Positions 21,153-57,576 of a stretch of DNA of 64,000 bases are shown here, in pieces. Location: positions 1 to 64,000 of the forward strand of contig JAQGDQ010000512.1 in the NCBI GenBank assembly GCA_030141605.1, read 5' to 3'. The notes under the pieces were generated by a model. The model was not told the DNA's origin, made no database searches, and saw only the letters and a list, made by a program, of their open reading frames with translations. Both the position numbers and the translations under genes were made by a program. The stretch's first letter is position 1. The number at the start of each line of letters is the position of its first letter. The DNA comes from Tubiluchus corallicola. Its lineage: Eukaryota > Animalia > Priapulida.

Positions 21153-21286
21153 CTGAAAAAAAGAAAAATTCGGAAAAAACTGGCAAAACAGTGCAGCACT
21201 CATGTTTTCAGTGACCAAGTAAAGCTCCATGGCATCTTTAACTGCATTGCTTTAGGCGTTTAACCTTTGGATATTTCAAGTTTGGG

Positions 21287-21811
21287 CAGTGGCGGCTCGT
21301 TTATGAGTACTGTGGACTGCAGCACCCCCTATTTTCATCAATATTATCAATAATATTCAATATAACGAATTTTTTTTCTTTAGTTCTTTCTTTATACTTG
21401 TACGGTCCAGAGCACATGAGGGTGGTACTGTTTGCTTCACAGCCCAGCACAGTGTGCTCATAGCTCAAGCAACTATTTGACTGTTGCGCGCATGCCTGAA
21501 ACCATACGCTTCACTTTAGGTGCTATCACTCACTCAGAGTGTGTTTTCAGTTGTCACGTGCTTAAAAGCCTGGAACAGGCACATTCTGGAACTGCGACAA
21601 TTTAGGCAATTCGTAAGCAAATAATATTTTTTGTTTACGATTTTTTTCAAGTTTATGTACAAATTTTTGTATGTTTGTTTATTTAAAATTACAATTACAA
21701 ATTGCAACATTAAACTAGCATATGTTTGTTTCGTTTTATACCGTATTAAAAGAATGGCTAAAAATTTCCTGAAGCAGCACCCCCAACAATTTCAGCTATG
21801 AGCTACCACAG
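21287..21811. mobile_element. Degenerate hAT-like MITE
   Basis: Imperfect TIR CAGTGGCGGCTCGT…ATGAGCTACCACAG; imperfect 8-bp flanks. Confidence 0.5.
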
Positions 21812-22139
21812 AGTTCGCGAGTATATTGATGTTGGCAATGCATTGCTAAATTTGGCGGTGGTGGTCGGTGGTGGTGGTTATGGTGGTGGTGTTGGTGGTG
21901 GTGGTGCAGCAACAGCAGCAGCAGCAGTAGTAGTTGTAATAGTAGTAGTAGTAGTATGTTTATTGACCAATTATTAAAGGAGTACCATTACAAATCAACA
22001 CTTGATTTGATAAGCAATTAATTAGCCTAACATATTACATAGTGTAAATTACTACTCTTTCCTTCAAAGGAAGACGGGAGTTTTCATATACTACCCCATT
22101 TTCAAGTCCGATACAGTATACATTTTAAGACATTTAGTA

Positions 22140-22640
22140 CTGCAAAAGCTTTTCCGATAATTATGTAACAGATTAAAAACTTAATTAATGGCAGGCAAGC
22201 ACAACTATTTATGACATCACAAACTAACATGATTTTCAACAGAAAAAAATTTTCCACGGGCGTGTTGCACGTGCTTGCAAAAGCAAAAATTGAAGTACAG
22301 TGCAGCTGTAAGATATTCAGTGTGTCGTATTAAAACTAGGCAAATTTTACGATAAAAATTCAAATTGCAAATTTACCGCTGTGCTCACGCATGAGCTGTC
22401 GAACGTGTGTAGCTCATCACAATCTAACACATCTGAACGGAGAGGTACAGCCCCTGTTTTTTGTGCAATGCATTTCCAAAATGCAGGCGCTAGTGCCCAT
22501 CTAACTAGCAAATAGCAAAATGCATCTAACAGCGAAGAACTAGTGATGCAAACGTGAAATTGTGTTTTTCTCATCATAATTCTCTCACGTAAGTCATTTT
22601 TGAAAAAGTAACATGTTTCCTTTCAATATTTTAAAGAGTA
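22140..22640. repeat. Dispersed repeat (inverted relative to 28350-28830, 43065-43515, 54185-54520)
   Basis: Shared GCTAGTGCCCATCTAACTAGCAAAT and TCACGTAAGTCATTTTTGAAAAA blocks. Confidence 0.7.
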
Positions 22641-22942
22641 GATTGTTTCCACCTACAGTCCGGTTTTGCTTTAAGTACAAGATCAGTATTTAAGATAGCA
22701 GCATACAATCATATTTTAAAATCAATTTTAATATCGGTGCTATTAAACAAGTTGCCTAGGTTTTCAAACTTAAGACCGAGATTCCTATTAATTATTGTAA
22801 TCTCATTCTAAGATGTTCACTAATTTCTCATTCACAAAGAACAGGTTGCTCTGTATGTACACTTTCTCCACATTAGCATAGCGTATCTTGTCAGCTTACG
22901 TAGTCTATTTATCAAAATTTAAATATTAGCATGCTAAGGCAA

Positions 22943-23416
22943 AATTACGGCCATATCACGTTGAAAACACCAGTTCTCGTCTGATCACCGAAGTTAAGCA
23001 ACGTAGAGCCTGGTTAGAACTTGGATGGGTGACCGACTAGGAATACCAGGTGCTGTAGACCGGAGGAGGTCAAGTGACCCAACGGCCATGTGTAGAGGAA
23101 TAAACCTTCCAAATCAGGAGTGGAGCCCCGAAGGTGGACCAATGCAGCATGCTCACTGACTCTGGCAGCTCTTGCAGCCAACCAGGTGTCAAACGTATCG
23201 CTCCGCTTTCCTTTGGACTACACCAGCGAGGAAGAGAGGGGGTTCCTGTTGTCTGAGAAACTCAGGATCTCCAAACACCTTGCCAGGCGTGCGCCCTGGA
23301 GACGTTCAAGGATCACACTGCTCAGCCTCAGTCGACGCTGCAGCTCCATCAATGTGACCAATAACTGACTCACTTGGCGCACACTCTATTGTCTTCCGAG
23401 GCAGAAGGATGCCAAC
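22943..23416 (+). mobile_element. Full-length 5S rRNA-derived SINE (SINE3) with RTE-like body and tail
   Basis: 5S head at about 22943-23060 with internal A/C boxes, then a non-rRNA body; TSD AAGGCAA (22936-22942, 23417-23423). Confidence 0.88.
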
Positions 23417-23592
23417 AAGGCAAGTGTAAATATTTGAATTCGTGAAAGAATAGTACGTTCCCTTTCAATATTTTATGAGTACGATTCTTCTGAGCTATAG
23501 TTTAAAACTGAACCCAGTTTCCTTTTAATTTTTCTAGATGCATTACAACTCAACAATATTGTGTGTATTCAACCAATTTTAGCGATTATGAC

Positions 23593-23950
23593 CAGGCCCT
23601 ATGCAAACATACTGCTTCCTCTCTCCCTCTCTCTGTCTGTCTGTTTCTCTCTCGCGCTCTCTTCCCCCCTCTCTCTCTCTTTCTCTCTCCCCCCTCTCTC
23701 TCTCCCTCTCTCTCTCTCTCTTGCCGCATGCATGCCATTTGCCAGTATTGACAAGTATTAAGGACTGGTCTTGAGATTAAAGCAGTTTTTCTTTCAATTG
23801 TTCTTTCCTTTAACAACTGTATAACTCCATATTTTGTCTTCGGAAATGCTTCTCCTGCATTCTAGCAGTTCTACCCCCCAACCCCCCACCCCGAGGGCGC
23901 CTCACACGCCCCCACTTCCCCGGGCCTCGCTTAGGCTGAAATAGGCCCTC
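23593..23950. mobile_element. hAT-type MITE (family of 17391-17922)
   Basis: CAGGCCCTAT…ATAGGCCCTC, 8-bp TSD ATTATGAC. Confidence 0.85.
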
Positions 23951-24073
23951 ATTATGACACTAGTTTTCAGCTACCAAGTGTACATAAAATTATGTGACCA
24001 GATGTAAATTATAAAAAACAACACAATTATCGTCAAAATAAGATACACTGCGTATTATTAATATATATTAAGG

Positions 24074-24312
24074 CTAGTTCTGAGACCAAACAAGAATGAC
24101 AGCAATACACGTTATTAAAACACACAATTGACTTCGCCTGGTATATAATTTGACTGCTCTTGCTACCAGGTCTTGTGGACAATGGGCAAAATCCATGGCA
24201 GTAATTTCACTTTCATTGTGCAACCGCCTTGGTTCGGCACAGTCAACTAAGCTTGATTTCCATTGCACAAGTTTTACCCACTTAAGACGGCAGTCACAGA
24301 TCAGCTTGTTAC
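24074..24312 (-). CDS. LRR paralogue A, exon 2 (LRRCT plus hydrophobic GPI-type tail)
   Basis: tttcctag|GT AAC AAG; GNKLICDC…W…DC.EP..L…C pattern of an LRRCT. Confidence 0.88.
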
Positions 24313-24623
24313 CTAGGAAACAATAGAACATGCCTGTGAAACAAGTGAACAGAGACACGGAAACAAAGAAAATACACGTGCTAAAAGTACTGTACCAACA
24401 ATTTGTAACAAAGCAGCAAAACCATGCGTGTTTTTTTTTAAATTGTGCACAGAAATCGCATTAATTTGTGCGGACTGCATGCTGTTTCAAATGTTTCGGG
24501 GATAAGGAGCATAAGAAGGTAAAGTAGTGATTATGCATAATTATAGATTGGAATCAAACTCGAATAAAAATATCCTCATTCTGTATTGAACGTTCGATGC
24601 TCATTCCTACTAAACATCTAAAG

Positions 24624-25044
24624 CAGGGGTGTGCAAATTATCTGACTAGCCGGACCACATTAAACATTCCCACAATTCCTGTGGGCCACATGCAGTTTGG
24701 TCAAGGAGCCAAGTACAGTAGGACCTGGTAACGATTTTTTTGCATCCGATTTGCGCACATCATTAACTACTACACTCAAGAAACTATTTTAGAAGTTATT
24801 AAAATTTATATTAAAAACCATATCGTCATGTCCGACAGTGACATTAGGTGACAACCGTCTTGCATGGGTTAATGTATTCCGATCTAGAGGAAAAAACTAC
24901 CCGCACTATCTTTGCGATATTGGCGCAGACTTCAGCTGGATAGCGTGGGCCGCACTTTCATTACGTTGACAAACCTCTTCGCGGGCCGCGCAAGATCTCT
25001 CAGGGGCTGCAAGTGGCCCGCGGGCAGCAGTTTGCACACCCCTG
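24624..25044. mobile_element. hAT-type MITE
   Basis: TIR CAGGGGTGTGCAAA…TTTGCACACCCCTG; TSD ATCTAAAG/ATCTAATG. Sister copy at 58712-59209. Confidence 0.85.
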
Positions 25045-25296
25045 ATCTAATGTTTCTGAGTTTGACTGTTTGGCATACATAGTAAACTGCACACCTTTAA
25101 TTACTATTACTTATGAGACATTGGTATTTTGTGCCACGAAGTGTCAAAGGTCACAAGGCCATCTTAACACATGTGTATGCTGGGTACTTCGCCAATCCCC
25201 CCCCCCCCAAGCATAGGGGCCCCTTGCTAATCTATGCATTTTGTGACAGTTAGTGGTCGTGTTAGCAGAGACGGCAGTGTATTGCTTTGACGTGTA

Positions 25297-25363
<67 letters not shown>

Positions 25364-25604
25364 TTTACTTACTTACTTACTTACTTACTCACATACATGA
25401 GTCAAAACGGCTTTACTTTGCCCACATGTCATGCGATGGTTGTAGTTAAAGACGCGTTGCTGCGTTACACTGAACCTTTAACCTACAGCTACTGTGCGTG
25501 TGCACGATGAAAAGTGTGAAAAGGTTTATTATCTCACACCCAGCTCTAACGAAATTGTCGATAAGAATTGTCAATAAACATTTAGTTTTGTCAAGTAACC
25601 TTAC

Positions 25605-26208
25605 CCGTGAAATGCAGATTTATCCCTGAAATTTGTTTGTGTGGAAATGTTAACGCTGGCATAGTCATTGTCTCGATAGCTGTGCCAGTGATAATAATGT
25701 CCTCCAAACACAAATTCCCAAAGAAATCGAAGTCCCCCGTTTCTAAGGCTGGACAGTTCTTGATATGAAAGGTGTGCATGCATGCATCTATAAGCTTAAA
25801 TGCATCTTTCTCGATCATTATCAACCCACTCAAGTCATCTAGCAGCAATTTGCGTCTGGGGAGGGCCGCAACCGCCGTACTGCTGATGTTTTCCAGGGTC
25901 TTCGAGTGTGCAATTGTTAAATATTCCATTTGTATTCCATCCAAGAACCCATCTGGCAGAAGTTTATCTTCGTAACCGAAGATCATGAGCTCGAGAATCT
26001 CACGTTTCGGCATTTTGGATGCTCCTCTCCTTGCGGTTTCACTCGAGTTAAAATTGCAAGTAATCTGGCACATTTCTGGCCTGTCGTAGTCTGATACACA
26101 CTCGCACAAGTGCACCACTTCCTGCATTTGCTCACAGTTGCACGAAGCTTTGCATCCGACCACTAACCAAAGTAGACCGATTCCTGCTGCTACGGTCGCC
26201 AAGCTCAT
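25605..26208 (-). CDS. LRR paralogue A, exon 1 (signal peptide, Cys cap, LRRs); spliced product 280 aa
   Basis: ORF with hydrophobic N-terminus, CxC…CxC…C…C and LxxIxxxAF repeats. Donor ACG G|gtaagg (phase 1) at the same position as in the four paralogues. Confidence 0.88.
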
Positions 26209-26589
26209 TTTGAAGAGTATAATTGCATATATTTTAGATTGGTTCAGAGTTCTTGTGGATTTGCACTGCAGAAAGCTTTAGTTGCAAGCAGCCATGCAGA
26301 GTTTGGGTGTGTCTCTGATGTGCATGCACTGCCATGCAGATGTTACCATGGAAGTTTACTCTCATTATGAACTAAGCTTCTTAACCAAGCAACACTTTTG
26401 CAATGTTGCGAAAGGTTGCTATGCATAACAAAACATTAGATCTGCGAACTGTGGTTACTATACTTGATGCACAAAATAAAGAATAGTCCTAAATTGTACA
26501 CAGGTATGTTCTGTACGTTTATTGATCAATAGTACAACAAAGAATAAAGATATTACAGAAGTAAAAATTAACCAGTTTATCCAATTAAT

Positions 26590-27181
26590 AGGTAACGTGG
26601 TCAAATTAGTGACCACAGCATTTTAGGTTAGAGCTTTTTGCAGATTCCAAAACAATAGATTATTTGTTGATAGCCTGATATTGTTTTTTTATTTTACAAT
26701 GTTGAACTTACCAAAGATGGATTAGCCTTTCAAAAACAATAAGCTCCCACTTCTTAAATACCCTAGTATGAACAACAGAACACTAAATTTAAGAAACATT
26801 AGAACGAACAATCAATATGGAAGGAATTCCATTACTAAGCAAGCAATACAACTTTGGAATTCATTACCGACATCACTAAAACATGGCAGCTCTTTATCAA
26901 TAGTCAAGTCTAAATTAAAAAAAAACATTTAATGACTCGTTTTGAATATCCGACATATGAACATACGACATACGAATCATAATTTCATTTTTTCCTAGAC
27001 CTTACTAAACTAGTTTATATTTTATTTTTGAATTTCTAGTTGCACTTATAGTGCAGCTTGCACCAGACGCATTTGCCCAGAACAGTATACGTTTTTTATA
27101 TGAACTAACACTGATTGTCTGTCTTTTATTATGATGATCAATGTTTTTAAAATGGCAAATAAGATTTTACTACTACTACTA
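26590..27181 (+). mobile_element. LINE (CR1/L2-group) 3' fragment
   Basis: Translation …IRTNNQYGRNSITKQAIQLWNSLP…KSKLK; (TAC)n tail. Related to 40346-40840. Confidence 0.65.
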
Positions 27182-27888
27182 GGTATATAAAAATATTTGT
27201 AGCAAAACTGAAATCATTGCACAATAGACATGCCAAAGTATGTATTTTCCACTAGTTTTGACATTCAAATTTTGAAATGTTGGCAAATAATTTTTTCAAG
27301 TGAAAAGTCACAAATATTTCCTAAAATGAGAATAATAAATGGTACAGTGGGCAGGTTAACAATGACACAAGTTTGAATACTATTCCAAGTAGAAAAACTT
27401 ATTCAGTTATTGGCTGAGTGTGGCTTCCCACAATGCACCGCCAGTCTAGGAAAATTCTCTATTTTCACACCCAAATCAGAAACCCAACTTCCACACAAAA
27501 CCAATCCAAATGATTGGGTGTTGAACTGGGTCCTTGTGACTTTACATCTAAAAACTTTTGGTTTCAACCACAACAAGCAGAGTTAGAGTGATAAAACTAA
27601 ACACTGGCAGGCACATTGTGTAGTTAATTGAATTCAGTTCAATTCAATAGTATTTATTTCAAATCAATAGTACGTCATAGTAACTTATGTTTTTAAGCTT
27701 TATGTAAGTGGAGGGTTTTCTTCCACTTTAGCATTAGTGTTAGTGTGATTGCTACACTACAGAGAAGCACCTCTTTCAAGACTTTTCCCGCTGTGTTAGT
27801 GGATATACATGTAATTAGCTACTAGATGTTTGTACTTCTACTGCAATTTATAAACTACAGTGCTAATAATTTTGTGTATAATCATTAA

Positions 27889-28334
27889 CCCTTTCAGTCC
27901 CAAATTATTTTTTAATAAAAAAAAATTTTGGCTTGGTACTTTTGTTCAGTATGTCCATCTTGCTTACACAATAATTTTTTTCTACCTGTGCCCGCGTGCT
28001 AAATATAGCCTGTATCCCACGGGATACATTGGGATTCAGTGGAAGCATAAAATGTGCTTCATTTTGCAACTGCTGATAATTTTTTAAAGTATTTAAGACA
28101 TTTAGTATGCATGCTATGCTGATCTATACAAAGTCGTCTCTAAAGTACTGAACCTTGTGCAGTTTTTTTATGCTATGTAGATTTTCTAGTTTGCCTATAT
28201 AGATAATCTATTGTTATTGGCTTAAATCGGCTAAAACTATTAGCAGATCGAATAACTGTCAGTTTTAAAATTTTATTAATTTTAAAGGCAGAAAATATTC
28301 TCGTACCCCACGGGATACAACGGGTATGAAAGGT
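27889..28334 (+). mobile_element. piggyBac-like MITE
   Basis: TTAA|CCCTTTCAG start; colinear with 5164-5622. Confidence 0.8.
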
Positions 28335-29547: not shown

Positions 29548-31146
29548 GAACATTGGAGCACTAAAATCGGAATCAGAGACTAAGATGGGCAAGCCATTTA
29601 ATGAGATTACCAGAAACAACACCAGTAAGATTAGCATTAAACATTGGAGCACTAAAATCAGAATCAGAAGACTAAGATGGGTAGGACATTTAATGAGATT
29701 ACCAGAAACAACACCAGTAAGATTAGCATTAAACATTGGAGCACTAAAATCAGAATCAGAAGACTAAGATGGGTAGGACATTTAATGAGATTACCAGAAA
29801 CAACACCAGTAAGATTAGCATTAAACATTGGAGCACTAAAATCAGAATCAGAAGACTAAGATGGGTAGGACATTTAATGAGATTACCAGAAACAACACCA
29901 GTAAGATTAGCATTAAACATTGGAGCACTAAAATCAGAATCAGAAGACTAAGATGGGTAGGACATTTAATGAGATTACCAGAAACAACACCAGTAAGATT
30001 AGCATTAAACATTGGAGCACTAAAATCAGAATCAGAGACTAAGATGGGTAAGCCATTTAATGAGATTACCAGAAACAACACCAGTAAGATTAGCATTAAA
30101 CATTGGAGCACTAAAATCAGAATCAGAAGACTAAGATGGGTAGGACATTTAATGAGATTACCAGAAACAACACCAGTAAGATTAGCATTAAACATTGGAG
30201 CACTAAAATCAGAATCAGAGACTAAGATGGGTAAGCCATTTAATGAGATTACCAGAAACAACACTAGTAAGATTAGCGTTAAACATTGGAGCACTAAAAT
30301 CAGAATCAGAAGACTAAGATGGGTAGGACATATGAGATTGCCAGAAACAACACCAGTAAGATTAGCATTAAACATTGGAGCACTAAAATCAGAATCAGAG
30401 ACTAAGATGGGTAAGCCATTTAATGAGATTACCAGAAACAACACCAGTAAGATTAGCGTTAAACATTGGAGCACTAAAATCAGAATCAGAAGACTAAGAT
30501 GGGTAGGACATTTAATGAGATTACCAGAAACAACACTAGAAAGATTAGCAATAAACATTGGAGCACTAAAATCAGAATCACAAGACTAAGATGGGTAGGA
30601 CATTTAATGAGATTGCCCGAAACAACACCAGTAAGATTAGCAATAAACATTGGAGCACTAAAATCAGAATCAGAAGACTAAGATGGGTAGGACATTTAAT
30701 GAGATTGCCAGAAACAACACCAGTAAGATTAGCATTAAACATTGGAGCACTAAAATCAGAATCAGAAGACTAAGATGGGTAGGACATTTAATGAGATTAC
30801 CAGAAACAACATCAGTAAGATTAGCGTTAAACATTGGAGCACTAAAATCAGAATCAGAAGATTAAGATGGGTAGGACATTTAATGAGATTGCCAGAAACA
30901 ACACCAGTAAGATTAGCATTAATCGAGGCACTGTAATTCACTAAATGACCTCCAGATAAACCAAAAACAACTTGGATATCAATAATAAATAAAGATTAGC
31001 AACGGCTGGTAAACTTATCAATAGCATTACAGGAGTTGAAAATTTCGGCTGCGAACAGGAAACACTGAAGTGCTCTAATAAACAACGTAGGCTCTACATC
31101 AACTGTACAATAGATGTTTAGAGCAACAGAAGAAGAAGAAGAAGAA
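29548..31146 (+). repeat. RTE LINE 3' fragment with a 92-bp ORF segment amplified about 15x, ending in a (GAA)n tail
   Basis: Unit translates to HWSTKIRIRRLRWVGHLMRLPETTPVRLAL, homologous to the RTE fragment at 6595-6960. Unique LINE 3' sequence resumes after about 30920. Confidence 0.85.
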
Positions 31147-31173
31147 GGCGCGATGTCCTAGCAACAGACATTG

Positions 31174-31187
31174 GTTACCATAGTAAC
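31174..31187 (+). promoter_or_regulatory. RFX X-box upstream of LRR paralogue B
   Basis: GTTACCATAGTAAC, 27 nt before the ATG; CCTAGCAAC half-site just upstream. Confidence 0.65.
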
Positions 31188-31214: not shown

Positions 31215-31848
31215 ATGGCAGAACTTAAAAAGTGGAGTCAGTTGTTAAATATGGCAACAATTAGTCTGTTATGGGTAGCTGTAGGATGCAGAGAACACTG
31301 GTGCAACTGTGACAACATGAAAAATGGTGAACTAATGACAGAAAACCTCTGCACATGCATCAAAGACCCGGGAAATATAAACAAATGCCAGCTGACCTGC
31401 AATGCAATGGATGCCAAGGCTGCCATGAAAATGGACGGCCTCATCCCAACGGATGGAGTCGATCAGCTCACAATTAGTGACTACACGGAAGAGGAGTTGC
31501 CAAGTAAATATCTACGCGGAACCATCATTAGGAAACTAATTATCAAAGATTCTGAAAAACTCAAGTCTATCGGAGAGACAACATTCAGCATCAAGGATGT
31601 GCAGCAGATAATTCTGGACAGCTTACAGGAGTTAAGCAAGATCGACAGCAGAGCATTTCACCTCATGACCACACTGCACGTGTTCACGATTAAGAACTGC
31701 AAGGCTTTAACGACAGGAGACCTTGATTTTAGTGGGAGTCCGCTTCTATCAGAAATTTCCATTACCGGCACGGCAATAGAAAAGATGAAGATGCCAATGC
31801 TCAAAGCTGGACTAGATCAGACAAAGCATGTGAAATTAGAATTGAGAG
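31215..31848 (+). CDS. LRR paralogue B, exon 1; spliced product 285 aa
   Basis: Signal peptide, Cys cap, LRRs (LKSIGETTF, LSKIDSRAF); donor AGA G|gtaagc, phase 1. Confidence 0.9.
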
Positions 31849-37494: not shown

Positions 37495-37602
37495 TTAACT
37501 ATACAGTACGTATGATGACTGCCTGACAAAAATCTAGCTGAACAATTAAACACCGAAGACTTAAAAGTAACTCGCAGTATTCCTCCTAGCAACTGACACG
37601 TG

Positions 37603-37674
37603 GTTACCATAGGAACATCACAAAGGAAAACAACTTTTCGTCATGGCAGCAACAGACATGGTTACCATAGAAAC
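37603..37674 (+). promoter_or_regulatory. Two RFX X-boxes (58-bp tandem duplication) upstream of paralogue C
   Basis: GTTACCATAGGAAC at 37603-37616 and GTTACCATAGAAAC at 37661-37674. Confidence 0.65.
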
Positions 37675-37700
37675 ATCACAAAGGAAAACAACTTTTCGTC

Positions 37701-38346
37701 ATGGCTGGCTACTGTGGACAGCTAGTTGAAAATCGGTGCCTAGCTCTGATCATTCCAGTAACTATTCTACTCTCGCTAGCTGTACAGTGCAGGGGAGAAT
37801 GCAACTGTGATGAAATAAACCAGGGGGAACTAATGACGCAAATGCTCTGTTTGTGTATTAGAGACATGAAAGATGCAAAACTCTGCCAGATGATCTGCAC
37901 TCCCTCAAATGCGGAGGCTGCCATCACGGTGCAGCGACTCCTCCCGAGGCAAGGCATCACGCAGCTCACGATCGCAGGTTACGCGGACACAGAACTTCCG
38001 GATAAATTTCTGGCGGGAATAACCACGCATCAACTGGTTATTGCGGCAGCAGACAAAATTCAGAATATCGGAAAGACGGCATTCGGCATTGTCAACGTGG
38101 AGGAAATGATAGTGGATAACCTGGGCGGACTGAAGACGATCCACATCCGTGCATTCCAGCGCATGGAGACACTGGCCAGTCTTATGATCAGAAACTGTCA
38201 GGCTTTAACGACGGGAGACCTGGACCTCTCCGGGAGTCCAAATCTGATAAGAATTTCAATCACTAGTACAGCAATGGAGACAATGAGAATGCCAAAACTG
38301 TACGCTAACTCAAGACAGGCAATACAGATGGAACTGGAATTGAGAG
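37701..38346 (+). CDS. LRR paralogue C, exon 1; spliced product 290 aa
   Basis: Homologous to B/D/E exon 1; donor AGA G|gtaaaa, phase 1. Confidence 0.88.
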
Positions 38347-40345: not shown

Positions 40346-40840
40346 TATATATGTATGTAATGATCTTTATTTGCCATTAAAATTCATTGATAATCACTGA
40401 TAAAAACTTTACAGAGATGATCAATCAGTGTTAGTTAATAAAAACTTAAACTGCTAAAGGCAAATGCTTCAGTGCAATCTAAACTACTGTGCAGTAATGG
40501 AAAGTAACGACAAATAAAATCAAACATATTTACAACTATGCACAAAAAATGAAAAACTATGATTTAATTAATATGGCCGTGGGTATATGAATTCTGAATT
40601 AGTGTGTATGTTGTCGTACTAGTGTGATGGTATTTCATATCTGGTTAATATTAGTGATTTTAATTTTGTTTCATGTGCTGATAGGGACTTGATTTGTTTA
40701 ACCTGTAATGGTAGAGAATTCCAAAGTAGAATTGCTTGTTTGATTACAGAGTTTGTTCCATAGTGGGTATTTGTCCTAATTTGTTTTAGATTGTTTGTTC
40801 TGGAATTAACGATAGGATTTGGAAAAAAGGCAAATCTGTT
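40346..40840 (-). mobile_element. LINE (CR1/L2-group) 3' fragment
   Basis: Translation …IRTNTHYGTNSVIKQAILLWNSLP…KLKSLIL; interrupts GACAGTAT|GTTTTGAATAT. Confidence 0.7.
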
Positions 40841-41195
40841 ATGTTTTGAATATTTCATTCCAGCATTTCAAGAACGTATTTGCCGTTCACTTGTTTGTTG
40901 TTGTTTCCTAGGTAACAAGCTGATTTGTGACTGTGCAGCAAACACAGTTGTCTATTTTCTTTGTTGGAATTTGTCGACAGTATGTTTTGAATATTTCATT
41001 TCAGCGTTTCGAGAATGTATTTGCTGTTCACTTGTTTGCTGTTGTTTCCTAGGTAACAATCTGATTTGTGACTGTGCAGCAAACACAGTTGTCGATTTTC
41101 TTTGTTGGAATTTGTCGACAGTATGTTTTCTGAATGTTTCATTTCAGCGTTTCAAGAACGTATTTGCCGTTCACTTGTTTGTTGTTGTTTCCTAG

Positions 41196-41422
41196 GTAAC
41201 AAGCTGATTTGTGACTGTGCAGTTAAGTGGGTAAAGTTGGAGCTGTGGAAACTATCCAAAATTGACTGTGAAGAACCAAAAAGGCTGCACGGTGAAAACG
41301 AAATTACAGCTGAAGATTTCGCCCATTGCCCTAAACCTGCCAGGGCCACAGCAACCACACAAAATGAAGCCAGTTTTTTAATAATATGTATCTCTGCCAC
41401 ACTCGTTTGGTTTCAGAACTAA
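41196..41422 (+). CDS. LRR paralogue C, exon 2 (LRRCT plus GPI-type tail)
   Basis: tttcctag|GT AAC AAG CTG ATT TGT GAC TGT; AATAAA at 41427. Confidence 0.85.
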
Positions 41423-42575: not shown

Positions 42576-42581
42576 AATTAA

Positions 42582-43519: not shown

Positions 43520-44606
43520 GAGATTGCCAGAAACAACACCAGTAAGATTAGCATTAAACATTGAAGCACTAAAATCAGAATCAGAGACTAAGATGGGTAG
43601 GACATTTAAAGAGATTGCCCGAAACAACATCAGTAAGATTAGCAATAAACATTGGAGCACTAAAATCAGTATCAGAAGACTGAGATGGGTAGGACATTTA
43701 AAGAGATTGCCCGAAACAACATCAGTAAGATTAGCGTTAAACATTGGAGCACTAAAATCAGCATCAGAAGACTGAGATGGGTAAGCCATTTAATGAGATT
43801 ACCAGAAACAACACCAGTAAGATTAGCATTAAACATTGGAGCACTAAAATCAGCATCAGAAGACTGAGATGGGTAGGACATTTAATGAGATTACCAGAAA
43901 CAACACTAGTAAGATTAGCATTAAACATTGGAGCACTAAAATCAGAATCAGAAGACTAAGATGGGTAGGAAATTTAATGAGATTACCAGAAACAACACTA
44001 GTAAGATTAGCAATAAACATTGGAGCACTAAAATCAGCATCAGAAGACTAAGATGGGTAGGACATTTAAAGAGATTACCAGAAACAACACTAGTAAGATG
44101 AGCATTAAACATTGAAGCACTAAAATCAGAATCAGAAGACTAAGATGGGTAGGACATTTAATGAGATTGCCCGAAACAACATCAGTAAGATTAGCAATAA
44201 ACATTGGAGCACTAAAATCAGAATCAGAAGACTAAGATGGGTAGGACATTTAATGAGATTGCCCGAAACAACATCAGTAAGGTTAGCGTTAAACATTGGA
44301 GCACTAAAATCAGAACCAGAAGACTAAGATGGGTAAGCCATTTAATGAGATTACCAGAAACAACACCAGTAAGATTAGCATTAATCGAGGCACTGTAATT
44401 TACTAAACGACCTCCAGGCAAAACCAAAAACAACTTGGATATCAAGAATTAATAAAGATTATGAACGGCTGGCAAAGTTATCAATAGCATTACAGGATTT
44501 GAAAATTTCGGCTGCAGACGGGAAACAGTGAAGTGGTCTAATAAACGACATAGGCTCTACATCAACTGTACAATAGATGTTTAGAGCAACAGAAGAAGAA
44601 GAAGAA
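43520..44606 (+). repeat. RTE-derived 92-bp array (about 9 copies) plus LINE 3' end
   Basis: Paralogous to 29548-31146. Confidence 0.85.
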
Positions 44607-44633: not shown

Positions 44634-44647
44634 GTTACCATAGTAAC
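44634..44647 (+). promoter_or_regulatory. RFX X-box upstream of paralogue D
   Basis: GTTACCATAGTAAC, 27 nt before the ATG. Confidence 0.65.
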
Positions 44648-44674: not shown

Positions 44675-45305
44675 ATGGCTGCACTTAAAAAGTGGAGTCA
44701 GTTGTTAAACATAGCAACAATTAATCTGTTATGGGTAGCTGTAGGATGCAGAGGATGGTGCATCTGTGAAAAGATAAAAAAAGGTGAACTAACGACAGAA
44801 AACCTCTGCACATGCATCGATGACCCGGAAGATCGGAACCAATGCCAGCTGACCTGCAACGCAATGGACGCCAAGGGGGCCGCGAAAACGGACAGCCTCA
44901 TCCCATCGTATGGAGTCGATCAGCTCACAATTAGCAACTACACGGGAGAGGAGCTGCCAGATAAATATCTACAGGGAACCATCATGAGGAAACTGATTAT
45001 CACAGATTCTGAAAAACTCAAGTCCATCGGAGAGACGACATTCGGCATCATAGAAGTGGAGGAGATAATTCTGAACAGCTTACATGAGTTAAGCAAGATC
45101 GACAAAGGAGCATTTCAGCTCATGACCATACTGGAGGTGTTCACGATTAGGAACTGCAAGGCTTTAACGACAGGAGATTTTGATTTTAGCGAGACTCCGT
45201 TTCTATCAAATATTACCATTACCGGCACGGCAATAGAAAAGATGAAGATGCCAGTACTCAACGGAGGACTAGATCAGGCAAGCCATATGCACTTATTTAT
45301 GAGAG
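44675..45305 (+). CDS. LRR paralogue D, exon 1; spliced product 286 aa
   Basis: Close paralogue of B; donor AGA G|gtaagc. Confidence 0.9.
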
Positions 45306-48369: not shown

Positions 48370-48616
48370 TTTCAATTTTATTTCAGACCTAAAGGTGTCC
48401 ACATAGCTAGCTGTACACAGTAAGCGATAAAAGATAAACGAGAGTTAGGGGAGAGTGCACTATAGCGCACCCTCTAGGGTTTGAAGTGTTTTTTACCTAG
48501 TCGGCTGCATAAATGCGTATTCACAGTATATCACTTGATGAAACGTACTTTAAAATTTGCTTGCTATCAATTTCAGGCTAATTTAATTGTAAAATTTTAA
48601 ATTATTTGATCAATTT

Positions 48617-50066: not shown

Positions 50067-51462
50067 TCTACCTCTATGTTCGGACTAAGCAACATTACAT
50101 TACACCATGATCAGTTCTAGCTTGACTTTCTATCAGCGTTTACGGCATGCTTTACACTACTGTTATACCTTCCTTACCTCATCAAATTCATTTCTGTCTC
50201 CATCAAATCTGAGCACAAAAAATAACTAATTGTTGCAACCAAACGTTCTTCATCTGTTGCTAATACGCTTGAGTTGAACTTTGAGAACAAGTTGGCAATG
50301 AATCGGGTTCCTGTCACCCACACGAGCGAGCACTGATCAGCAAGTTCGGAATGATGCACCTAATGCACTATTTGATTGGTCAAAAGTGACATCATCTCAT
50401 TTGCATTGGCTAATTGTGCATTTTGTGAAGATTTTATTTACTGTATTTCTTACTTTGCTGTGGAAAGATGGAACAAAGTTGGGTATAGGAAATGTGTGGC
50501 TGCATAGCAAAGTCGTTCGTAAGTCGGCAATTAAGCTTTTCTGGTTATTCACATATCCTGAATCACCATTTCATGAGGATCATTTTGATACCAAGTTCAT
50601 CGCTCTATGTTATTTCTAAGCTGAGATAATCCAGATTGAAGTTGAGGTGCAGGCTACGCACTGAAAAACATAACCTTGAGAAAATCACTGTTTAAATTGG
50701 CCATTGTTTTTTGTGGTGTTTCTGCAAAACACTTAGCAACCGCACAAATGTTGGTTGCCATGGACTTCGCAAGAACAATACGAAGTCCTGTTTAAATCCA
50801 GTAGATGGCTCTTTCTGAAGAACGTCTGAGCTTGGCAACAGAAATGGGAAAAGTGAAGCAAAATGATTGCTTCCATGAGCTACAATCGGAGTTGTTTATA
50901 CAAGTTTTTTACAATTTCAGTACTAGTTTTTAGCCAGAACAGTGGATAAGGAGTTATAAAATTAGATTTGTAGTATGGTTTGAACATTTTCTCGACAATT
51001 TGATGCTAGAATATAAAAAGCCAATATATTTAGCATTTGTTTTTATAAAAAAACAAACAAAAAATTGACATTTGACAAAATTTTTGGGTCATTCTTCTCT
51101 GATGCACCATAACATAGTTTCAACTATGCCGACTCATGGACGATTTTGGTTTGCAGGCACACAAATAGAAAATTTCAATAGAAAAAGCTTAGCCCTGTCA
51201 GACAATGATAATGACGATGATGGCTGCCGTAAGTAATTTTGTGGTAAAGTACTGTTGCTTTTAGTCTACTTTTACCAAGGAAAAGGCTGCAGCAACAAGG
51301 TAGGTCTCACAAAAACCGTTTTTAGTACCATTGCCAACAGCATAAGCTTAATTTTTACTATGCATAGCAAAGTTTAGACATCATAGTAGATGCCTTTTAT
51401 ATCAAAATGGAGATTTGGGTGAAAACCACCGTATTTACGAAAATCACTTGTAGTTCCATAAT

Positions 51463-51927
51463 TAGGCCCTATTTCAAGGTGGGGGGGAGTGGGGATACTT
51501 CCCCAGGGCCTCACCCTGCAGGGGGCCTCGCACCGAGGTAATTTTTTTTGGTTTATACGAACATACTGCCTCTTCTCTCCCTCTTTCTCTCTTGCCGCAC
51601 GAGCGCCGTTTGCCTTGTGCGGCTCGGTGCGGATGTTCAGCTGTTTTCAATTTCGGAATTTCTAACACCAGCTTGTGCGGAAGTGTGAGTACGGTATTAC
51701 ATATTGCAAAGATGTTGTTTTTGATTTGACTATTTGACAAGTATTAAGGACTGGTCTTGAGAATAAAGCAGTTTTTCTTTCCTTTAACAACTGTATAACT
51801 CCATATTTTCTCTTCGAAAATGCTTCTCCGGCATTCTAGCAGTTCAAAAATTTTCTGGGCACCCCCCCCCCGAGGAGGCCTCACACCCCCACTTCCCCGG
51901 GCCTTGCTTAGGCTGAAATAGGCCCTG
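51463..51927. mobile_element. hAT-type MITE (family of 17391-17922)
   Basis: TAGGCCCTATTTCA…TGAAATAGGCCCTG, 8-bp TSD TCCATAAT. Confidence 0.88.
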
Positions 51928-52127
51928 TCCATAATTACTATTGTCGCGAAAAGGTCGATTTTGGTGTGACAGCTCACACATGAACTGTTTGAAGCACTAC
52001 TGCATTGTGCAAATTCTGAATTTTTAGCATGACTACTGCATGACATTGTGTTGTCATGAAAAAACGCATTAAAGTTTAGCATAACTGAATTTAAAACGTT
52101 AGATTCAACTCCTAGCAACGGATATTG

Positions 52128-52141
52128 GTTGCCAAGGTAAC
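52128..52141 (+). promoter_or_regulatory. RFX X-box upstream of paralogue E
   Basis: GTTGCCAAGGTAAC, 27 nt before the ATG; CCTAGCAAC half-site at 52111. Confidence 0.62.
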
Positions 52142-52168
52142 GCCGCAAAGCAAAACGAACCTTTCTTC

Positions 52169-52841
52169 ATGGCAGCACTGTTAGTGTTTGCTACAGACGG
52201 GGGGCTACCACACCTAGTTATAAAGTGGAGCCAGATACTAACCATAGCAGCAGCTAGTGTATTATGGCTAGCAGTAGAATGTAGAGTAAAAAACTGCGAC
52301 TGCAGTGTGATAGAGAAAGGAGGGCTAACCACAAAAAAGCTCTGCATATGCCTCGCAGATCAAGAAAATGTGGAGACATGCCAGTTAATCTGCAGTCCAT
52401 TGAAAGAGGGGCCTGCTAAGGCAATGGGGGATCTCATTCCATCACAAGGAGTCAGACAACTCACAATCACTCGTTACGATGACAAACAATTTCCGGATCA
52501 ATTTCTGTCGAAAATAAAAGTCCAGCAACTGACCATCTCACAGTCAAGCACCCTGGAGTTTATCGGTGAGACGACGTTTGGCATCACCAACGTGGAAGAA
52601 TTGATGCTGGACGGGTTGGAGACATTGATGAAGATCGACAGCGAGACGTTTGCTCGCATGACAACGCTGCGGACGCTCGCGATTACGGACTGCAAGGCAC
52701 TGAAAACCGGAGACTTCGACTTTCCTCAGAGCGATAAACTAATGAAAATTTCCATTACCGGGACAGCGATAACGACAATGAGAATGCCAAGGCTCAACCG
52801 AGGACTCGATCAGGCAGCAAACATAGATCTAGAAGTGAGAG
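52169..52841 (+). CDS. LRR paralogue E, exon 1; spliced product 297 aa
   Basis: Homologous to B/C/D; donor AGA G|gtaagc. Confidence 0.9.
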
Positions 52842-52921
52842 GTAAGCAAGTTTAATAGGCTTCTTATACCAAACTTTATGCTTTAACATATTATTCCACA
52901 TCAAACGATACCTTTTGGTAC

Positions 52922-54000
52922 GCCGTCTAAAACATGACACGTCCCACCTGTTGATGTACACCGTCTAAAACATGACACGTCCCACCTGTTGATGTACACC
53001 GTCTAAAACATAACACATCCCGCCTGTTGATGTACACCGTCTAAAACATAACACATCCTGCCTGTTGATGTACACCGTCTAAAACATGACATGTCCCACC
53101 TGTTGATGTACACCGTCTAAAACATAACACATCCCGCCTGTTGATGTACACCGTATAAAACATGACATGTCCCACCTGTCCAACTGTTGATGTGCACAGT
53201 CTAAAACATAACACGTCCTACCTGTTGATGTACACCGTCTAAAGCATAACACATCCCGCCTGTTGATGTACACCATCTAAAACATAACACATCCCACCTG
53301 CCTGTCGATGTGCGCCGTCTAAAACATGACACGTCCCGCCTGTTGATGTACACCATATAAAACATGACACATCCCAACTGTTGATGTGCACCTTCTAAAA
53401 CATGACACGTCCCCCTGTTTATGTACACCTTCTAAAACACAACATGTCCCCTCTGTTGATGTACACCGTCTCTAAAACATGACACATCCCAACTGTTGAT
53501 GTGCACCTTCTAAAACATGACACGTCCCCCCTGTTTATGTACACCATCTAAAACACGACACGTCCCCTCTGTTGATGTACACCGTCTAAAACATGACACA
53601 TCCCACCTGTTGATGTGCACCGTCTATAACATTACACATCCCACCTGTTGATGTGCACCGTCTATAACATTACACATCCCACCTGTTGATGCACACCGTC
53701 TAAAATAAAACATGACACGTCCCCTCTGTTGATGTACACCGTCTAAAAGATGACACATCACACCTGTTGATGTGCACCGTCTATAACATTACACATCACA
53801 CCTGTTGATGTGCACCGTCTAAAACACAACACGCCCCCTCTGTTGATGTACACCGTCTAAAACATGACACATCCCACCTGTTGATGTGCACCGTCTATAA
53901 CATTACACATCCCACCTGTTGATGTGCACCGTCTATAACATGACACGTCCCACCTGTTGACGTACACCATCTAAAACATGACACATCCCGCCTGTTGATG
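52922..54000. repeat. ~39-bp minisatellite in the paralogue E intron
   Basis: Unit CCGTCTAAAACATGACACRTCCCACCTGTTGATGTACA. Confidence 0.93.
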
Positions 54001-55257
54001 TCATGCATTCCGGTCCGCTACCACCGCCCACGAGGGATCATCACTCAAATCTAGAGTCGTATTTACCAAACCACTTTGCAGTATATCTACACACATCAGT
54101 AGCTGTCCGCCTCTCGGCTTTTTTGTCGTTTGCTATAGGAACGCCATATAGTATGATAAGAGGAGACTCATGAGGAGACTCAAAACAATCTACTCTCTAA
54201 AATATTGAAAGGCAACATACTACTTTTTCCAAGAGTGACTTACGTGAAAGAATTATTACCACACAAACACCATTTCACGTACACACCACTAGTTCATTTT
54301 TATCTTAAAACTTGCCTAGTTTTAGTACAACACACTGAATATCTTACTATAGCCCCGTACTTCAATTTACGCTTTTGCAAACACGTGCAACACGCTCGTG
54401 GAATATTTTCGCTGCTGAAAATTACGTTAGTTTGTGACGTCATCAACAGTTGGGCTCGCCCGCCGTTAATTAAGTTTTTTAATCTATTATTTAATAGAAA
54501 CACTTTTGCAGTATTAATTGAGTTAAAATGTACACTTTTTATTGTATTTGAAGATGGGGTAGTATATGAAAAATCATCCTGTCTACCTTTTAGTAAACTA
54601 TGTAAAGCCAACTTATAATAACTCTAGTAGGCCTACCTAAATAAACCACGAAAGAACACACAATCGAGTTAAGTTCAGTAGGCATGTTGAAATAAATTAT
54701 ATTAAAACTTCTACAAAATACATCACTAGTTCTCGGTGTTCATATTCGCAGTTTTATTTCCTGAATCCACTTGCACCTTACCTATGCTCCAATCCTGGCA
54801 AGCTCTTACGAAGCCAAAAGAGCAGTTAATTAGTGCAGAATGCAATGGGTTACTCCCTTACTAAATTTCTTACGAACGACTGTCACGGCTTTGAATCTCC
54901 TTTTCTAAAAACTTAGAATGCGGAGTAACTATTGTGACGTCTCAATATGTAAACTGGCTAAAAACAGAGATATAACACTGGCATCGTGATGAACACATCC
55001 TGCAACGTGTCCATGAATATTTTTGTTGTTGAAAATTACGTTAGTTTGTGACGTCATCAATAGGGTTATATTATAGTAACTCTATAGAGTTACTTCATAA
55101 TGAGTGACCCAAAAATCAACATAAATGAAATACGAACGAGCCTAGAAGAGTGGCTATGAAGCAAAGTCAGAACGACAGCTCCACAAAAGTCGTCAACACT
55201 GAGACTATGCCAAAAGAACTCGGCTGGACGTTCACTTGTTTTGCATTTCTTTCGCAG

Positions 55258-55478
55258 GAAACAAGCTGATCTGTGACTGCACCGTGCAGTGGGTGAAGAG
55301 AGTCGAGTGGAAAGAATCGAAAGTCGACTGCGAGGATCCCAAGCGAGTGTTTGGCATAAACGAAATTACGACCAAGGATTTCGAACACTGCCCGGCATTT
55401 ACAATTGCTGCTGCAGCAAGAATGTACAGTATGTTAAATGTGTTTTGCATTTTGGCAACATGTTTTACTGGTAGATAA
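55258..55478 (+). CDS. LRR paralogue E, exon 2 (LRRCT plus GPI-type tail)
   Basis: ctttcgcag|GA AAC AAG CTG ATC TGT GAC TGC. Confidence 0.88.
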
Positions 55479-55678
55479 TGGTAGACATCATAACTCCTCA
55501 TCAATTTATGTTTACATTAAATACTAACCTGTTTGTAAGGAACTATTGTCTAATCTTATCAATCATTAAATCATTTAATCCTAGTCACATTAGTATGTGT
55601 TTTTTGTACGTTTGCGCATATGTATGAAAAAATGCGATGAAAAAAATATAAAATGATATAGTAAATTATAGTTTAACT

Positions 55679-56053
55679 CAGTGGTTCCCAAAGTAGGGGT
55701 AAATTACCCCTTGCGGGTAATTTGTTTTTTTTGGGGGGGGGGTAACGGGCACCCCTCTGAAAATTTTTAAAACTTTGCTCGGAATGCATTTTACGTAGTT
55801 TTCTTCTTGAAGAGACTGCCTGCTCACTCAGTAATGAGCAGGTTCAGTAATTGTAATTCTTGTTTTGGCAACAGTACAACAACAACACCTGGAAATTTAT
55901 TTATGTCACGAGCAAACATAAATAATTTTGCTTGCTTGTGGCATATACGTGTGTTTACTTTTTGAGTTGGAGAAGTAGTACTAGGTGGAGGATAATGTAC
56001 ACGACCGGGTTTCCCGATTTGGGTAACGGTCCGAGAAAGTTTGGGAACCACTG
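55679..56053. mobile_element. hAT-type MITE
   Basis: TIR CAGTGGTTCCCAAA…TTTGGGAACCACTG, 8-bp TSD GTTTAACT. Confidence 0.9.
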
Positions 56054-56364
56054 GTTTAACTAATTGTAACAAGATATAAATAAACAGTCGTTTACCAGGC
56101 TGGAACTGTAAGACATGGAATAAAGTAATAAGTGAAGATACAAGATGTGTCTGAACAATGTAGAAGAGTTTATAACATATTTAATAGATACTTTAGAACG
56201 CACTATTATAACCGTGTCTTGAAGGTTATGACATGGCGGAGACTGCTCTCCTGTTATGTATGCGCATATTAAATAGTTATTAAGATATTATTACAATAAG
56301 CTTCATTGCATTTCCATAAAATTGCTCTGATTAAGCTCAAATGACATCAAAATGACACACAAAC

Positions 56365-56860
56365 TGACTACTTCATTAACTACTTCATTGACTACCTCAC
56401 TGACTATTCAATGACCACTTCATTGACTACTTCAATGACTACTTCATTGACTACTTCATTGACCACTTCATTGACTACCTCACTGACTACTCAATGACCA
56501 CTTCATTGACTATTTCAATGACTACTTCATTGACCACTTCATTGACTACTTCATTGACTACTTCATTCTGCTTCATTGACTACCTCACTGACTACTTCAT
56601 TGACTACCTCACTGAATACATTAATGACTACTTCATTGACCACTTCACTGACTACTTCATTGAATACCTCACTGACTACTTCATTGACTACCTCACTGAC
56701 TACTTCATTGACTACTTCATTGAATACCTCACTGACTACTTCATTGACTACTTCATTGAATACCTCACTGACTACTTCATTGACTACTTTATTGAGCACT
56801 TCTTTGACTACTTCATTGACTACATCATTTACTACCTCATTTACTACCTCATTGACTATG
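56365..56860. repeat. 12-bp minisatellite (TGACTACTTCAT)
   Basis: Directly visible. Confidence 0.92.
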
Positions 56861-57055
56861 TACATTTTCATAGACGAATGACTGATTGACTAATTGGAGA
56901 ACCAAATCCTCAGCAATGCTTAAACATGGCTTCATTTACTTGAGATGTTACGAAAGGATATAAATCACTGTTGTCGTTAATTAATCTCGTATCTCTTAAT
57001 TAATCAATGTTATTATTTCTTAACATTATAACATTAATGTTATTATTTCATGGTT

Positions 57056-57266
57056 CCCAAACTAGACAACTGCAAAACAGACAAACTTGATAATCACAAA
57101 GGCTACATCATTTACAAAAGACATTCAACAAGAAGCCGTGACTACCAAACTAGACAACTGCAAAACAGACAAACTTGATAATCACAAAGGCTACATCGTT
57201 GACAAAAGACATTCAACAAAAAGCCGTGACTACCAAACTTGACAACTGCAAAACAGACAAACTTGA
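57056..57266. repeat. 89-bp tandem repeat, about 2.4 copies
   Basis: CCAAACTAGACAACTGCAAAACAGACAAACTTGA occurs three times. Confidence 0.85.
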
Positions 57267-57576
57267 AAGGCTGTTACAAGCTAAATTTTTCCCCTCGCCT
57301 GTAACACAGTCGTATCCGTCAGTGCTTGTATCTCCAGTAAATCAGCAAATGTTCCGACTAGATCAACCAATTTGTTATACAGATAAATAATAGGCATTGA
57401 TAATATATTGATAATAATACGATTTGACACATTTGTCATACGGGATTTCGGTTATTTCGGACGTCAGACAACCGCGAATTACCCCAGTTGCGAGCTACCC
57501 AACATGAATAGGTCACGACAATAGAGGGTTTACTAATGAACGTGAAATATCAGCCCAGCTCTATAATTTCACTCAC

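What the first reader, a model, noticed from the sequence alone, without database searches (positions are those of the whole stretch)
21153..57576. The whole LRR cluster is nested in a single 36.4 kb intron of the housekeeping gene WDR6
Seen: WDR6 exon 57739-57577 ends in phase 0 (…ALWNITW|gtgagt) and exon 21152-21008 starts in phase 0 (cag|HKDF…AHQSGINSL). The joined protein follows the WDR6 motif order with no obvious gap. The other WDR6 introns in the window are 0.3-2.7 kb. Four nested genes are antisense to the host. Gene A is on the host strand, so its splice and polyadenylation signals must be skipped during WDR6 processing; its phase-1 acceptor would frameshift WDR6. Inference: a multigene family expanded inside the intron of a tRNA 2'-O-methylation cofactor gene.
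Basis: partly seen in the sequence, partly recalled or inferred. Interest (0 to 1): 0.7.

Follow-up and report, generated by a model that had tools for sequence, protein, structure and literature searches.

The report
Five receptor genes inside one intron
Five intact, related genes for predicted cell-surface proteins lie between two exons of an animal housekeeping gene (likely WDR6) whose message would be spliced across all 36 kb of them; such nesting is well known in animals, and the new part is an unnamed gene family that is likely controlled by a cilia-gene regulator.

Summary
Confirmed at sequence level. Ten minus-strand exons join into one open 537-residue WD40 reading frame across a 36,424-bp, phase-0 GT-AG gap; the other eight introns are 326-2,724 bp. 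The join completes a seven-blade propeller (4+3 blades), and no further blade or second exon copy lies in the gap. The gap holds five intact two-exon LRR genes, four antisense and one (A) sense; splicing the host onto A's acceptor stops after three codons. Not shown: no RNA run was listed, so the long splice is inferred, and the name WDR6 rests on a weak Atlas lead plus recalled motifs. Multigene clusters in one intron and nested LRR genes are known (GMC/flotillin-2, NF1, LRRTM/catenin). Additions: the four antisense genes keep an RFX X-box about 40 nt before the ATG and a nearby AATAAA; sense gene A has neither. The young pair B/D differs about 3-fold more in coding than in non-coding DNA. 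The scan had not noted this locus before; it noted other nested clusters in other genomes. New member of a known kind.

The parts
63362..63553 (-). Host (likely WDR6) exon, 192 nt, phase 0 to 0; first host exon seen in the window
   Evidence: AG/GT bounded, open frame
62583..62712 (-). Host exon, 130 nt; blade 1 of the C-terminal propeller
59763..59858 (-). Host exon, 96 nt; start of blade 2
58066..58582 (-). Host exon, 517 nt; end of blade 2, long insertion, blade 3
   Evidence: Atlas rows named WDR6 at 0.92, weak
57577..57739 (-). Host exon, 163 nt; blade 4; ends in phase 0 at the donor of the long intron
   Evidence: contigs of runs X1, X2, X3 run from it into the intron
21153..57576 (-). 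Predicted 36,424-bp phase-0 GT-AG intron; nested gene spans are 39% of it, their coding DNA 12%, much of the rest tandem arrays and dispersed repeats
   Evidence: splice not shown in RNA
21008..21152 (-). Host exon, 145 nt; loop and start of blade 5; phase-0 acceptor
   Evidence: acceptor score matched or beaten by 22 of 2,009 AGs in the intron
19499..19630 (-). Host exon, 132 nt; blade 5 and start of blade 6
18006..18100 (-). Host exon, 95 nt; blade 6
15845..15912 (-). Host exon, 68 nt; start of blade 7
14261..14336 (-). Host last coding exon; end of blade 7 and stop codon
25605..26208 (-). LRR gene A exon 1 (host strand): signal peptide, Cys-rich cap, LRRs
   Evidence: 280 aa with exon 2
24074..24312 (-). 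LRR gene A exon 2: C-terminal cap and hydrophobic tail; phase-1 acceptor, out of frame for the host
31174..31187 (+). RFX X-box match before gene B
   Evidence: published strict consensus
31215..31848 (+). LRR gene B exon 1
   Evidence: 285 aa
33311..33534 (+). LRR gene B exon 2
37603..37674 (+). Two X-box matches (37603-37616, 37661-37674) in a 58-bp duplicated leader of gene C
37701..38346 (+). LRR gene C exon 1
   Evidence: 290 aa
41196..41422 (+). LRR gene C exon 2 (third of three tandem acceptor copies)
44634..44647 (+). RFX X-box match before gene D
44675..45305 (+). LRR gene D exon 1 (young duplicate of B)
   Evidence: 286 aa
47198..47427 (+). LRR gene D exon 2
52128..52141 (+). RFX X-box match before gene E
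52169..52841 (+). LRR gene E exon 1
   Evidence: 297 aa; relative P0001 66% identical
55258..55478 (+). LRR gene E exon 2

Best explanation
Five intact paralogous LRR genes lie in a 36,424-bp gap between two in-frame exons of a WD40 gene that is likely WDR6, and the host transcript is predicted to remove them all as one intron while the nested genes are likely transcribed from their own promoters. Shown: exon anatomy, phases, open frames, the LRR fold of a relative, the young B/D duplication. Inferred: the family grew by local tandem duplication, with one inverted copy (A). The four antisense genes present no splice or poly(A) signals on the host strand. For sense gene A, its own strong donor 1.3 kb upstream would take its acceptor, and its lack of a canonical AATAAA would let host polymerase read through. 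The proteins have a signal peptide, a Cys-rich cap, about six LRRs, a C-terminal cap and a hydrophobic tail without a cytoplasmic part, so they are likely GPI-anchored surface recognition proteins. B-E are likely RFX targets expressed in a restricted, ciliated cell type, which would limit clashes with the broadly expressed host.
For: Frame-exact phase-0 join; 537-aa open frame over ten exons. Seven blade motifs, four before and three after the gap (blades picked by eye), matching the seven-bladed C-terminal propeller of Trm734 (PMC6847430, passages). No duplicate exon and no extra blade (best E=2) in the gap; 13 candidate phase-0/phase-0 open exons passed loose splice thresholds and none looked WD40-like by eye. 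Three of eight listed Atlas rows are named WDR6. Contigs of three runs (at most two samples: X1; X2=X3) continue from the donor exon into the intron. Five intact ORFs with the same intron position. P0001 (66% to E) is a 301-aa frame on a 956-nt contig and P0008 (68% to B) lies on a 1,049-nt contig; both run unbroken through the intron position, as spliced cDNA would. AlphaFold model of P0001, pLDDT 87.6, best matches Toll, SLITRK and Nogo-receptor LRR domains; profile hits to extracellular LRR proteins down to E 2.8e-19. dN/dS 0.12-0.35 for the seven older pairs with a measurable dS. Published restricted X-box consensus: 21 loci in the window, one within 100 nt before the ATG in 4 of 5 genes, against 0.023 for a random 100-nt stretch. 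AATAAA at +27, +5, +27 and +601 after the stops of B-E; none within 1,500 nt for A. A's donor ranks 3 of 2,465 GTs in the intron, scored with a matrix that included it.
Against: No RNA read or contig spans the junction. The host name is not proven by alignment: single exons found no WDR6 relative in PDB, Pfam or the protein database, and the Atlas recognition value 1736 is under its 2300 bar. The junction falls in a variable loop, so a small loop exon would escape the blade test. A's acceptors (24312, 24333) score above the host's own acceptor (9.6 and 11.7 against 7.8), so some mis-splicing onto them is plausible. The five genes form one group only at 84/79 support. PMC2375033 (passages) warns that an X-box alone does not predict RFX control; here the sites are inherited copies of one ancestral site and sit in a generally conserved 60-nt leader. 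AATAAA on host versus opposite strand in the intron is 31 versus 49, P=0.057. GPI anchoring was judged from hydropathy only.
Confidence: 0.8

Rival explanations
1. One or more small host exons coding for the loop between blades 4 and 5 lie inside the interval, so the cluster is spread over two or more host introns instead of one.
For: The junction is in a variable loop where homology cannot count residues; 13 open phase-0/phase-0 candidates pass loose splice thresholds; three strong tandem acceptors lie 330-510 bp behind the donor (57245, 57157, 57069).
Against: The direct join already gives a 37-residue linker and a complete propeller. The three tandem acceptors reach a stop within 8-10 codons. 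Several candidates lie antisense to LRR exons or in repeats.
Confidence: 0.08
2. The arrangement is an assembly artefact, or the two halves belong to different WDR6 copies: the repeat-rich cluster was joined between them by mistake, or B and D are two haplotypes of one gene.
For: The interval has many tandem arrays of 0.4-1.5 kb and dispersed repeats. No record spans it; only 277 bp at the donor end is bridged. No whole genome was held to count WDR6 copies.
Against: The window has no N. The two halves are exactly complementary, with no overlap or missing blade. B and D differ by 4.3% in non-coding DNA and by two insertions of 430 and 704 bp, with gene C between them, whereas other individuals differ from the window by about 1% (7 of 824 in X2).
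Confidence: 0.07
3. The host is no longer spliced through: sense gene A captures the transcript (truncated host, or host-LRR fusion through a phase-0 AG at 26265), and the intact reading frame is a remnant or a minor product.
For: A's exon-2 acceptors are among the strongest in the intron. An AG at 26265 would fuse the host in frame to the whole A reading frame.
Against: The five downstream host exons are intact and in frame. The 26265 site is weak: 366 of 2,009 AGs score as high. Splicing onto 24312 or 24333 stops after 3 or 6 codons. A lacks a canonical AATAAA.
Confidence: 0.05

Closest known systems
Insect GMC oxidoreductase cluster in flotillin-2 intron 2 (PMC1891103; abstract and first third of Results read)
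   Same: A tandem paralog family (12 genes, 27-69% identical, 80.9 kb) inside one large intron of an unrelated host, antisense to it. Here five genes, 38-71% identical, 36 kb.
   Different: The GMC genes all face one way and the cluster is conserved across insects. Here one spliced member is on the host strand, the guests are LRR proteins, and conservation in other species is untested.
NF1 intron 35 (27b) with OMGP, EVI2A, EVI2B (PMC7692384, one passage; PMC2116377, passages)
   Same: A ubiquitously expressed host with several antisense guests in one intron, one of them a Cys-rich-capped LRR surface glycoprotein.
   Different: OMGP is not a paralog of the EVI2 genes (recalled) and its coding region has no intron; here all five guests are one family with a coding intron.
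LRRTM genes in alpha-catenin introns and other nested LRR genes of vertebrates (PMC3933685; abstract and section 17)
   Same: Compact LRR surface-protein genes nested antisense in a large intron of a conserved host; 12 of 19 lineage-lost nested genes in that study encode LRR proteins.
   Different: One guest per host, transmembrane proteins, spread by duplication of the host-guest pair instead of by tandem growth inside one intron.
Drosophila nested genes in general (PMC3814207, parts 1-2 of 4 read; PMC5174743, passages)
   Same: About 71% opposite strand; guests evolve faster and are more tissue-restricted; complex nestings with up to 13 guests.
   Different: Same-strand guests are mostly intronless (about 72%); gene A is a spliced same-strand guest, the less common class.
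Short capped extracellular LRR proteins: Nogo receptor, SLITRK LRR1, Toll N-terminal domain, amphioxus VLR-like Bf66946
   Same: Signal peptide, Cys-rich N-cap, LRR solenoid, C-cap; a hydrophobic tail as in GPI-anchored members.
   Different: Only 12-20% identity and TM-scores of 0.2-0.5; the close relatives found are unnamed singletons, so this is a separate family, not an orthologue of any of these.

Membership tests
Nested (intronic) multigene cluster | Guest genes lie wholly between two consecutive exons of one host gene | tested here: met
   Genomic level: all five genes lie within 21153-57576; flanking exons join in frame, no duplicate or extra blade exon
Nested (intronic) multigene cluster | Host mRNA is spliced across the guests | tested here: inconclusive
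   No RNA holder listed; laid runs behaved as DNA
Nested (intronic) multigene cluster | Guests are paralogs from tandem duplication | tested here: met
   38-71% identity, same intron position; B and D units collinear over several kb
WDR6/Trm734 | C-terminal seven-bladed WD40 propeller (BPC) | tested here: met
   Seven blade motifs in the joined model, picked by eye; architecture from PMC6847430
WDR6/Trm734 | Significant sequence alignment to a named WDR6/Trm734 | tested here: inconclusive
   Single exons gave no hit; Atlas feature search lists three WDR6-named rows of eight at 0.92 with low recognition; motif order fits my recall of WDR6, not a test
WDR6/Trm734 | Three propellers; N-terminal motifs needed for Gm34 formation (PMC11170731) | not testable with these tools
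   The 5' part of the gene lies beyond position 64000
WDR6/Trm734 | Partners FTSJ1/Trm7 for tRNA 2'-O-methylation | not testable with these tools
   Needs biochemistry
Extracellular capped LRR proteins | Signal peptide, Cys-rich N-cap, LRR solenoid, Cys C-cap | tested here: met
   Pfam LRR hits for the window genes are below the curated cut-offs
GPI-anchored LRR proteins | C-terminal hydrophobic signal with no cytoplasmic tail, and an omega site | tested here: inconclusive
   Hydrophobic 15-mer within 2-4 residues of the C-terminus in 5 of 5 genes; omega site not predicted, anchoring not assayed
Variable lymphocyte receptors | Incomplete germline gene assembled somatically from LRR cassettes (recalled definition) | tested here: not met
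   All five genes are complete in the genome and no separate LRR cassettes were found in the window (tblastn)
RFX (X-box) target genes | X-box consensus shortly upstream of the ATG at a conserved position | tested here: met
   4 of 5 genes, 40-41 nt before the ATG, conserved among paralogs with dS above 1; gene A has only a half-site
RFX (X-box) target genes | Expression depends on RFX; expressed in ciliated cells | not testable with these tools
   No RNA data

The most novel reading that the evidence does not exclude
The intron shelters an undescribed, lineage-restricted family of GPI-anchored LRR receptors that are RFX-driven, made in ciliated (sensory) cells and diversifying under positive selection. 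The one copy that flipped onto the host strand survived by losing the X-box and the canonical poly(A) signal, which gives a within-family test of how a spliced sense-strand guest avoids cutting its host short.
Probability: 0.25. Interest if true: 0.55.

Novelty: new member of a known kind. Interest (0 to 1): 0.3.

Why it matters
The nesting itself adds one more case to a known pattern and matters mainly for annotation: gene finders would likely split the host in two. Its value is as a small natural experiment, with four antisense copies and one sense copy of the same gene in the same intron, and as a pointer to an unnamed surface-protein family with a conserved RFX site and signs of adaptive change in its youngest pair.

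Tried and rejected
RNA test: no RNA holder listed among 6 runs. Of 4 runs laid on the donor-side region, three covered introns as DNA and the possible RNA run X6 laid only 5 repeat pieces; this is no evidence on expression. No whole genome was held, so WDR6 copy number and repeat copy numbers are untested. Host exons as single queries: nothing relevant in PDB (4 exons), Pfam, the protein database (2 exons) or metagenome contigs (2 exons; 595 and 271 pattern matches, none confirmed). Gene C exon 1 found no relative by word search; the profile search did. Single-sequence fold of P0001 failed (pLDDT 34.5); the 19-row alignment worked. My first X-box pattern was drawn from the sites themselves, so the claim rests on the published consensus. 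B/D differences are not enriched on the concave LRR face (12 of 30 against 51 of 154, P=0.53), and second positions do not differ significantly from fourfold sites (P=0.47), so positive selection is suggested only against the non-coding yardstick. An in-frame host-A fusion through 26265 was considered and judged unlikely. VLR-like somatic assembly rejected (complete genes). Literature: a search for WDR6 + nested + intron listed 15 of 16 papers, none about this by title or abstract start; X-box + RFX + LRR + GPI + cilia (4 of 5 terms) gave 0; a priapulid + LRR + cluster search listed 15 of 4,083, none relevant by title. Supplements of these papers were not read.
Full report
Observation. The window is animal-type DNA without N; no whole genome was held. 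Ten minus-strand exons between 63553 and 14261 are bounded by AG and GT and join into one open frame of 537 residues. The intron under test runs 57576-21153 (36,424 bp, phase 0); the other eight are 326-2,724 bp.

Is it one host gene? The joined protein has seven WD40-type blade motifs, picked by eye, four before the gap and three after it. Yeast Trm734, the WDR6 orthologue, ends in a seven-bladed propeller (PMC6847430, passages), so the join completes a domain. tblastn of the model finds each exon once (other hits E 3.3 and 5.3). A profile of the seven blades finds the nine exon-bearing frames it was built from and nothing better than E=2 inside the gap. Thirteen open phase-0/phase-0 stretches pass loose splice thresholds and none looked WD40-like by eye, but the junction lies in a loop, where a small exon could hide. 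The name WDR6 is likely but not proven: single exons found no named relative in PDB, Pfam, the protein database or metagenomes. The Atlas feature search with the largest exon lists three WDR6-named rows among eight at 0.92, with a recognition value below its bar. The motif order fits my recall of WDR6, which is not a test.

Reads. Six runs were listed, none on record as RNA. Contigs of X1, X2 and X3 (X2 and X3 are one sample) continue from exon 57739-57577 for 277 bp into the intron and differ from the window by about 1%. This supports the donor-side edge of the assembly. Nothing spans the interval, and the splice is untested.

The guests. Five two-exon genes are intact: A (minus, 280 aa), B, C, D, E (plus; 285, 290, 286, 297 aa), each with a phase-1 intron at the same place and 38-71% identity. 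Their coding DNA is 12% and their spans 39% of the intron. A profile of the five first exons found 461 proteins at E up to 0.001 among 1.84 billion. I took 15 short, single-stretch hits from the 150 listed; the 10 looked up are unnamed singletons on contigs of 956-1,322 nt. P0001 (66% to E over 290 aa) and P0008 (68% to B over 147 aa) run unbroken through the intron position, which fits spliced transcripts of relatives and supports the gene models. A 19-row alignment folds P0001 as a capped LRR solenoid (pLDDT 87.6) whose best matches are Toll, SLITRK2, LINGO-1 and Nogo-receptor domains at 12-20% identity; the profile hits the same class in PDB. All five have a hydrophobic N-terminus and a hydrophobic C-terminus with at most four residues behind it, so GPI anchoring is likely but untested.

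History. In a tree of 18 proteins, E pairs with P0001 (100/99), B and D with P0008 (98/95), and all seven form a group at 84/79, which is not firm. Older pairs have dS above 1.1 or saturated, with dN/dS 0.12-0.35 in the seven measurable pairs. B and D are a young duplication that includes flanks and tandem arrays. Their non-coding DNA differs at 64 of 1,505 sites (4.3%), mature exon 1 at 78 of 553 (14%), the C-cap region at 32 of 151 (21%, near in-frame indels), and the signal peptide and tail at 5-6%. Second codon positions differ at 23 of 210 (P=1.7e-4 against non-coding); fourfold sites at 4 of 61 (not different from either). This suggests adaptive change, from one pair; gene conversion in the non-coding part could mimic it, and the changes are not concentrated on the concave face.

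How host and guests could coexist. B-E carry their signals on the other strand. For A, the host donor spliced onto 24312 or 24333 stops after 3 or 6 codons, and both sites score above the host's own acceptor. I infer that A's own donor, 1.3 kb upstream and among the best in the intron, takes that acceptor first. B-E have AATAAA at +27, +5, +27 and +601 after the stop, while A has none within 1,500 nt, only variants at +505 and +545; one gene, so suggestive only. B-E each have an RFX X-box 40-41 nt before the ATG. With the published restricted consensus (PMC2375033, passages) there are 21 loci in the window, 4 of 5 genes have one within 100 nt, and a random stretch has one with probability 0.023. 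A has only a half-site 134 nt upstream. The sites descend from one ancestral site, so the evidence is their conservation across lineages with saturated dS. That paper found conserved position, not presence, to be predictive (16 of 25 tested genes were targets). Expression in ciliated cells is therefore likely but unshown.

Comparison. Twelve GMC oxidoreductase genes fill an 83-kb flotillin-2 intron in Drosophila (PMC1891103). Three antisense genes, among them the LRR gene OMGP, sit in one NF1 intron. LRRTM genes are nested in alpha-catenin introns, and LRR genes are prominent among nested genes. In Drosophila 9.5% of genes are in nested structures, 71% of guests are antisense, and complex nestings hold up to 13 genes. 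A 4:1 strand split is what this predicts; a spliced sense guest is the less common class. I found no paper on a nested cluster in WDR6 (listing only) or on an RFX-driven GPI-LRR family. Earlier notes of this scan call the genome priapulid-like (unchecked) and record other nested genes, but not this locus.

Verdict. Real at the DNA level, spliced as one intron with probability about 0.8; a new member of a known kind; interest 0.3. The guest family, with its conserved X-box and the contrast between gene A and its antisense sisters, is more interesting than the nesting.

Noticed in passing
window 22943-23416 (+); 53-497 (-); 12908-13155: A full 5S rRNA match (96.5 bits) is followed by a body of about 350 bp shared at about 91% with two other places, one of which also has a 5S head: likely a 5S-headed SINE-like repeat. 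One copy lies inside the long intron.
   Followed up: partly
window 40840-41222 (+): A 141-bp tandem repeat gives gene C three copies of its exon-2 acceptor. Only the third gives the normal C-cap; the first two would give shorter, hydrophobic, Cys-rich tails.
   Followed up: partly
window 37588-37705 (+): Gene C's leader is duplicated (58 bp): two X-boxes and two ATGs; the first ATG opens a 28-codon out-of-frame reading frame that overlaps the real start.
   Followed up: partly
window 26265 (-): A weak AG 57 nt before gene A's ATG is in phase 0 with A's frame, so a rare host-A in-frame fusion is formally possible.
   Followed up: yes
window 50068-51163 versus 19860-20365 and 61849-62504: A composite element in the long intron matches the next host intron (506 bp, 96%, inverted) and an upstream host intron (674 bp, 81%, inverted); a young mobile element or local copying, copy number unknown.
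   Followed up: no
window 57057-57266 (-): An 88-bp tandem repeat places three strong acceptor-like sites 330-510 bp behind the host donor; each reaches a stop within 8-10 codons. Possible decoys or recursive-splicing sites, untested.
   Followed up: partly
window 29549-30922 and 43520-44384 (+): 92-bp tandem arrays upstream of B and D resemble (71-76%) a stretch at 6813-6957 in an ORF that looks like the end of a LINE reverse transcriptase (recalled likeness).
   Followed up: no
window 3518-9770 (+): Exon-like stretches of another gene (near 3518-4118, 5726-6011, 7441-7621, 9649-9770) with a Pro/Ser-rich 8-residue repeat, converging on the host's 3' end; no Pfam hit for the first.
   Followed up: no
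window 7866-7879 and 9808-9821: Two more strict X-box matches away from any LRR start, one inside a dispersed repeat.
   Followed up: no
window 58704-59210 and 59940-60390: Two very high-copy elements in host introns, with summed contig depth thousands of times that of the flanks in runs X1-X3.
   Followed up: no
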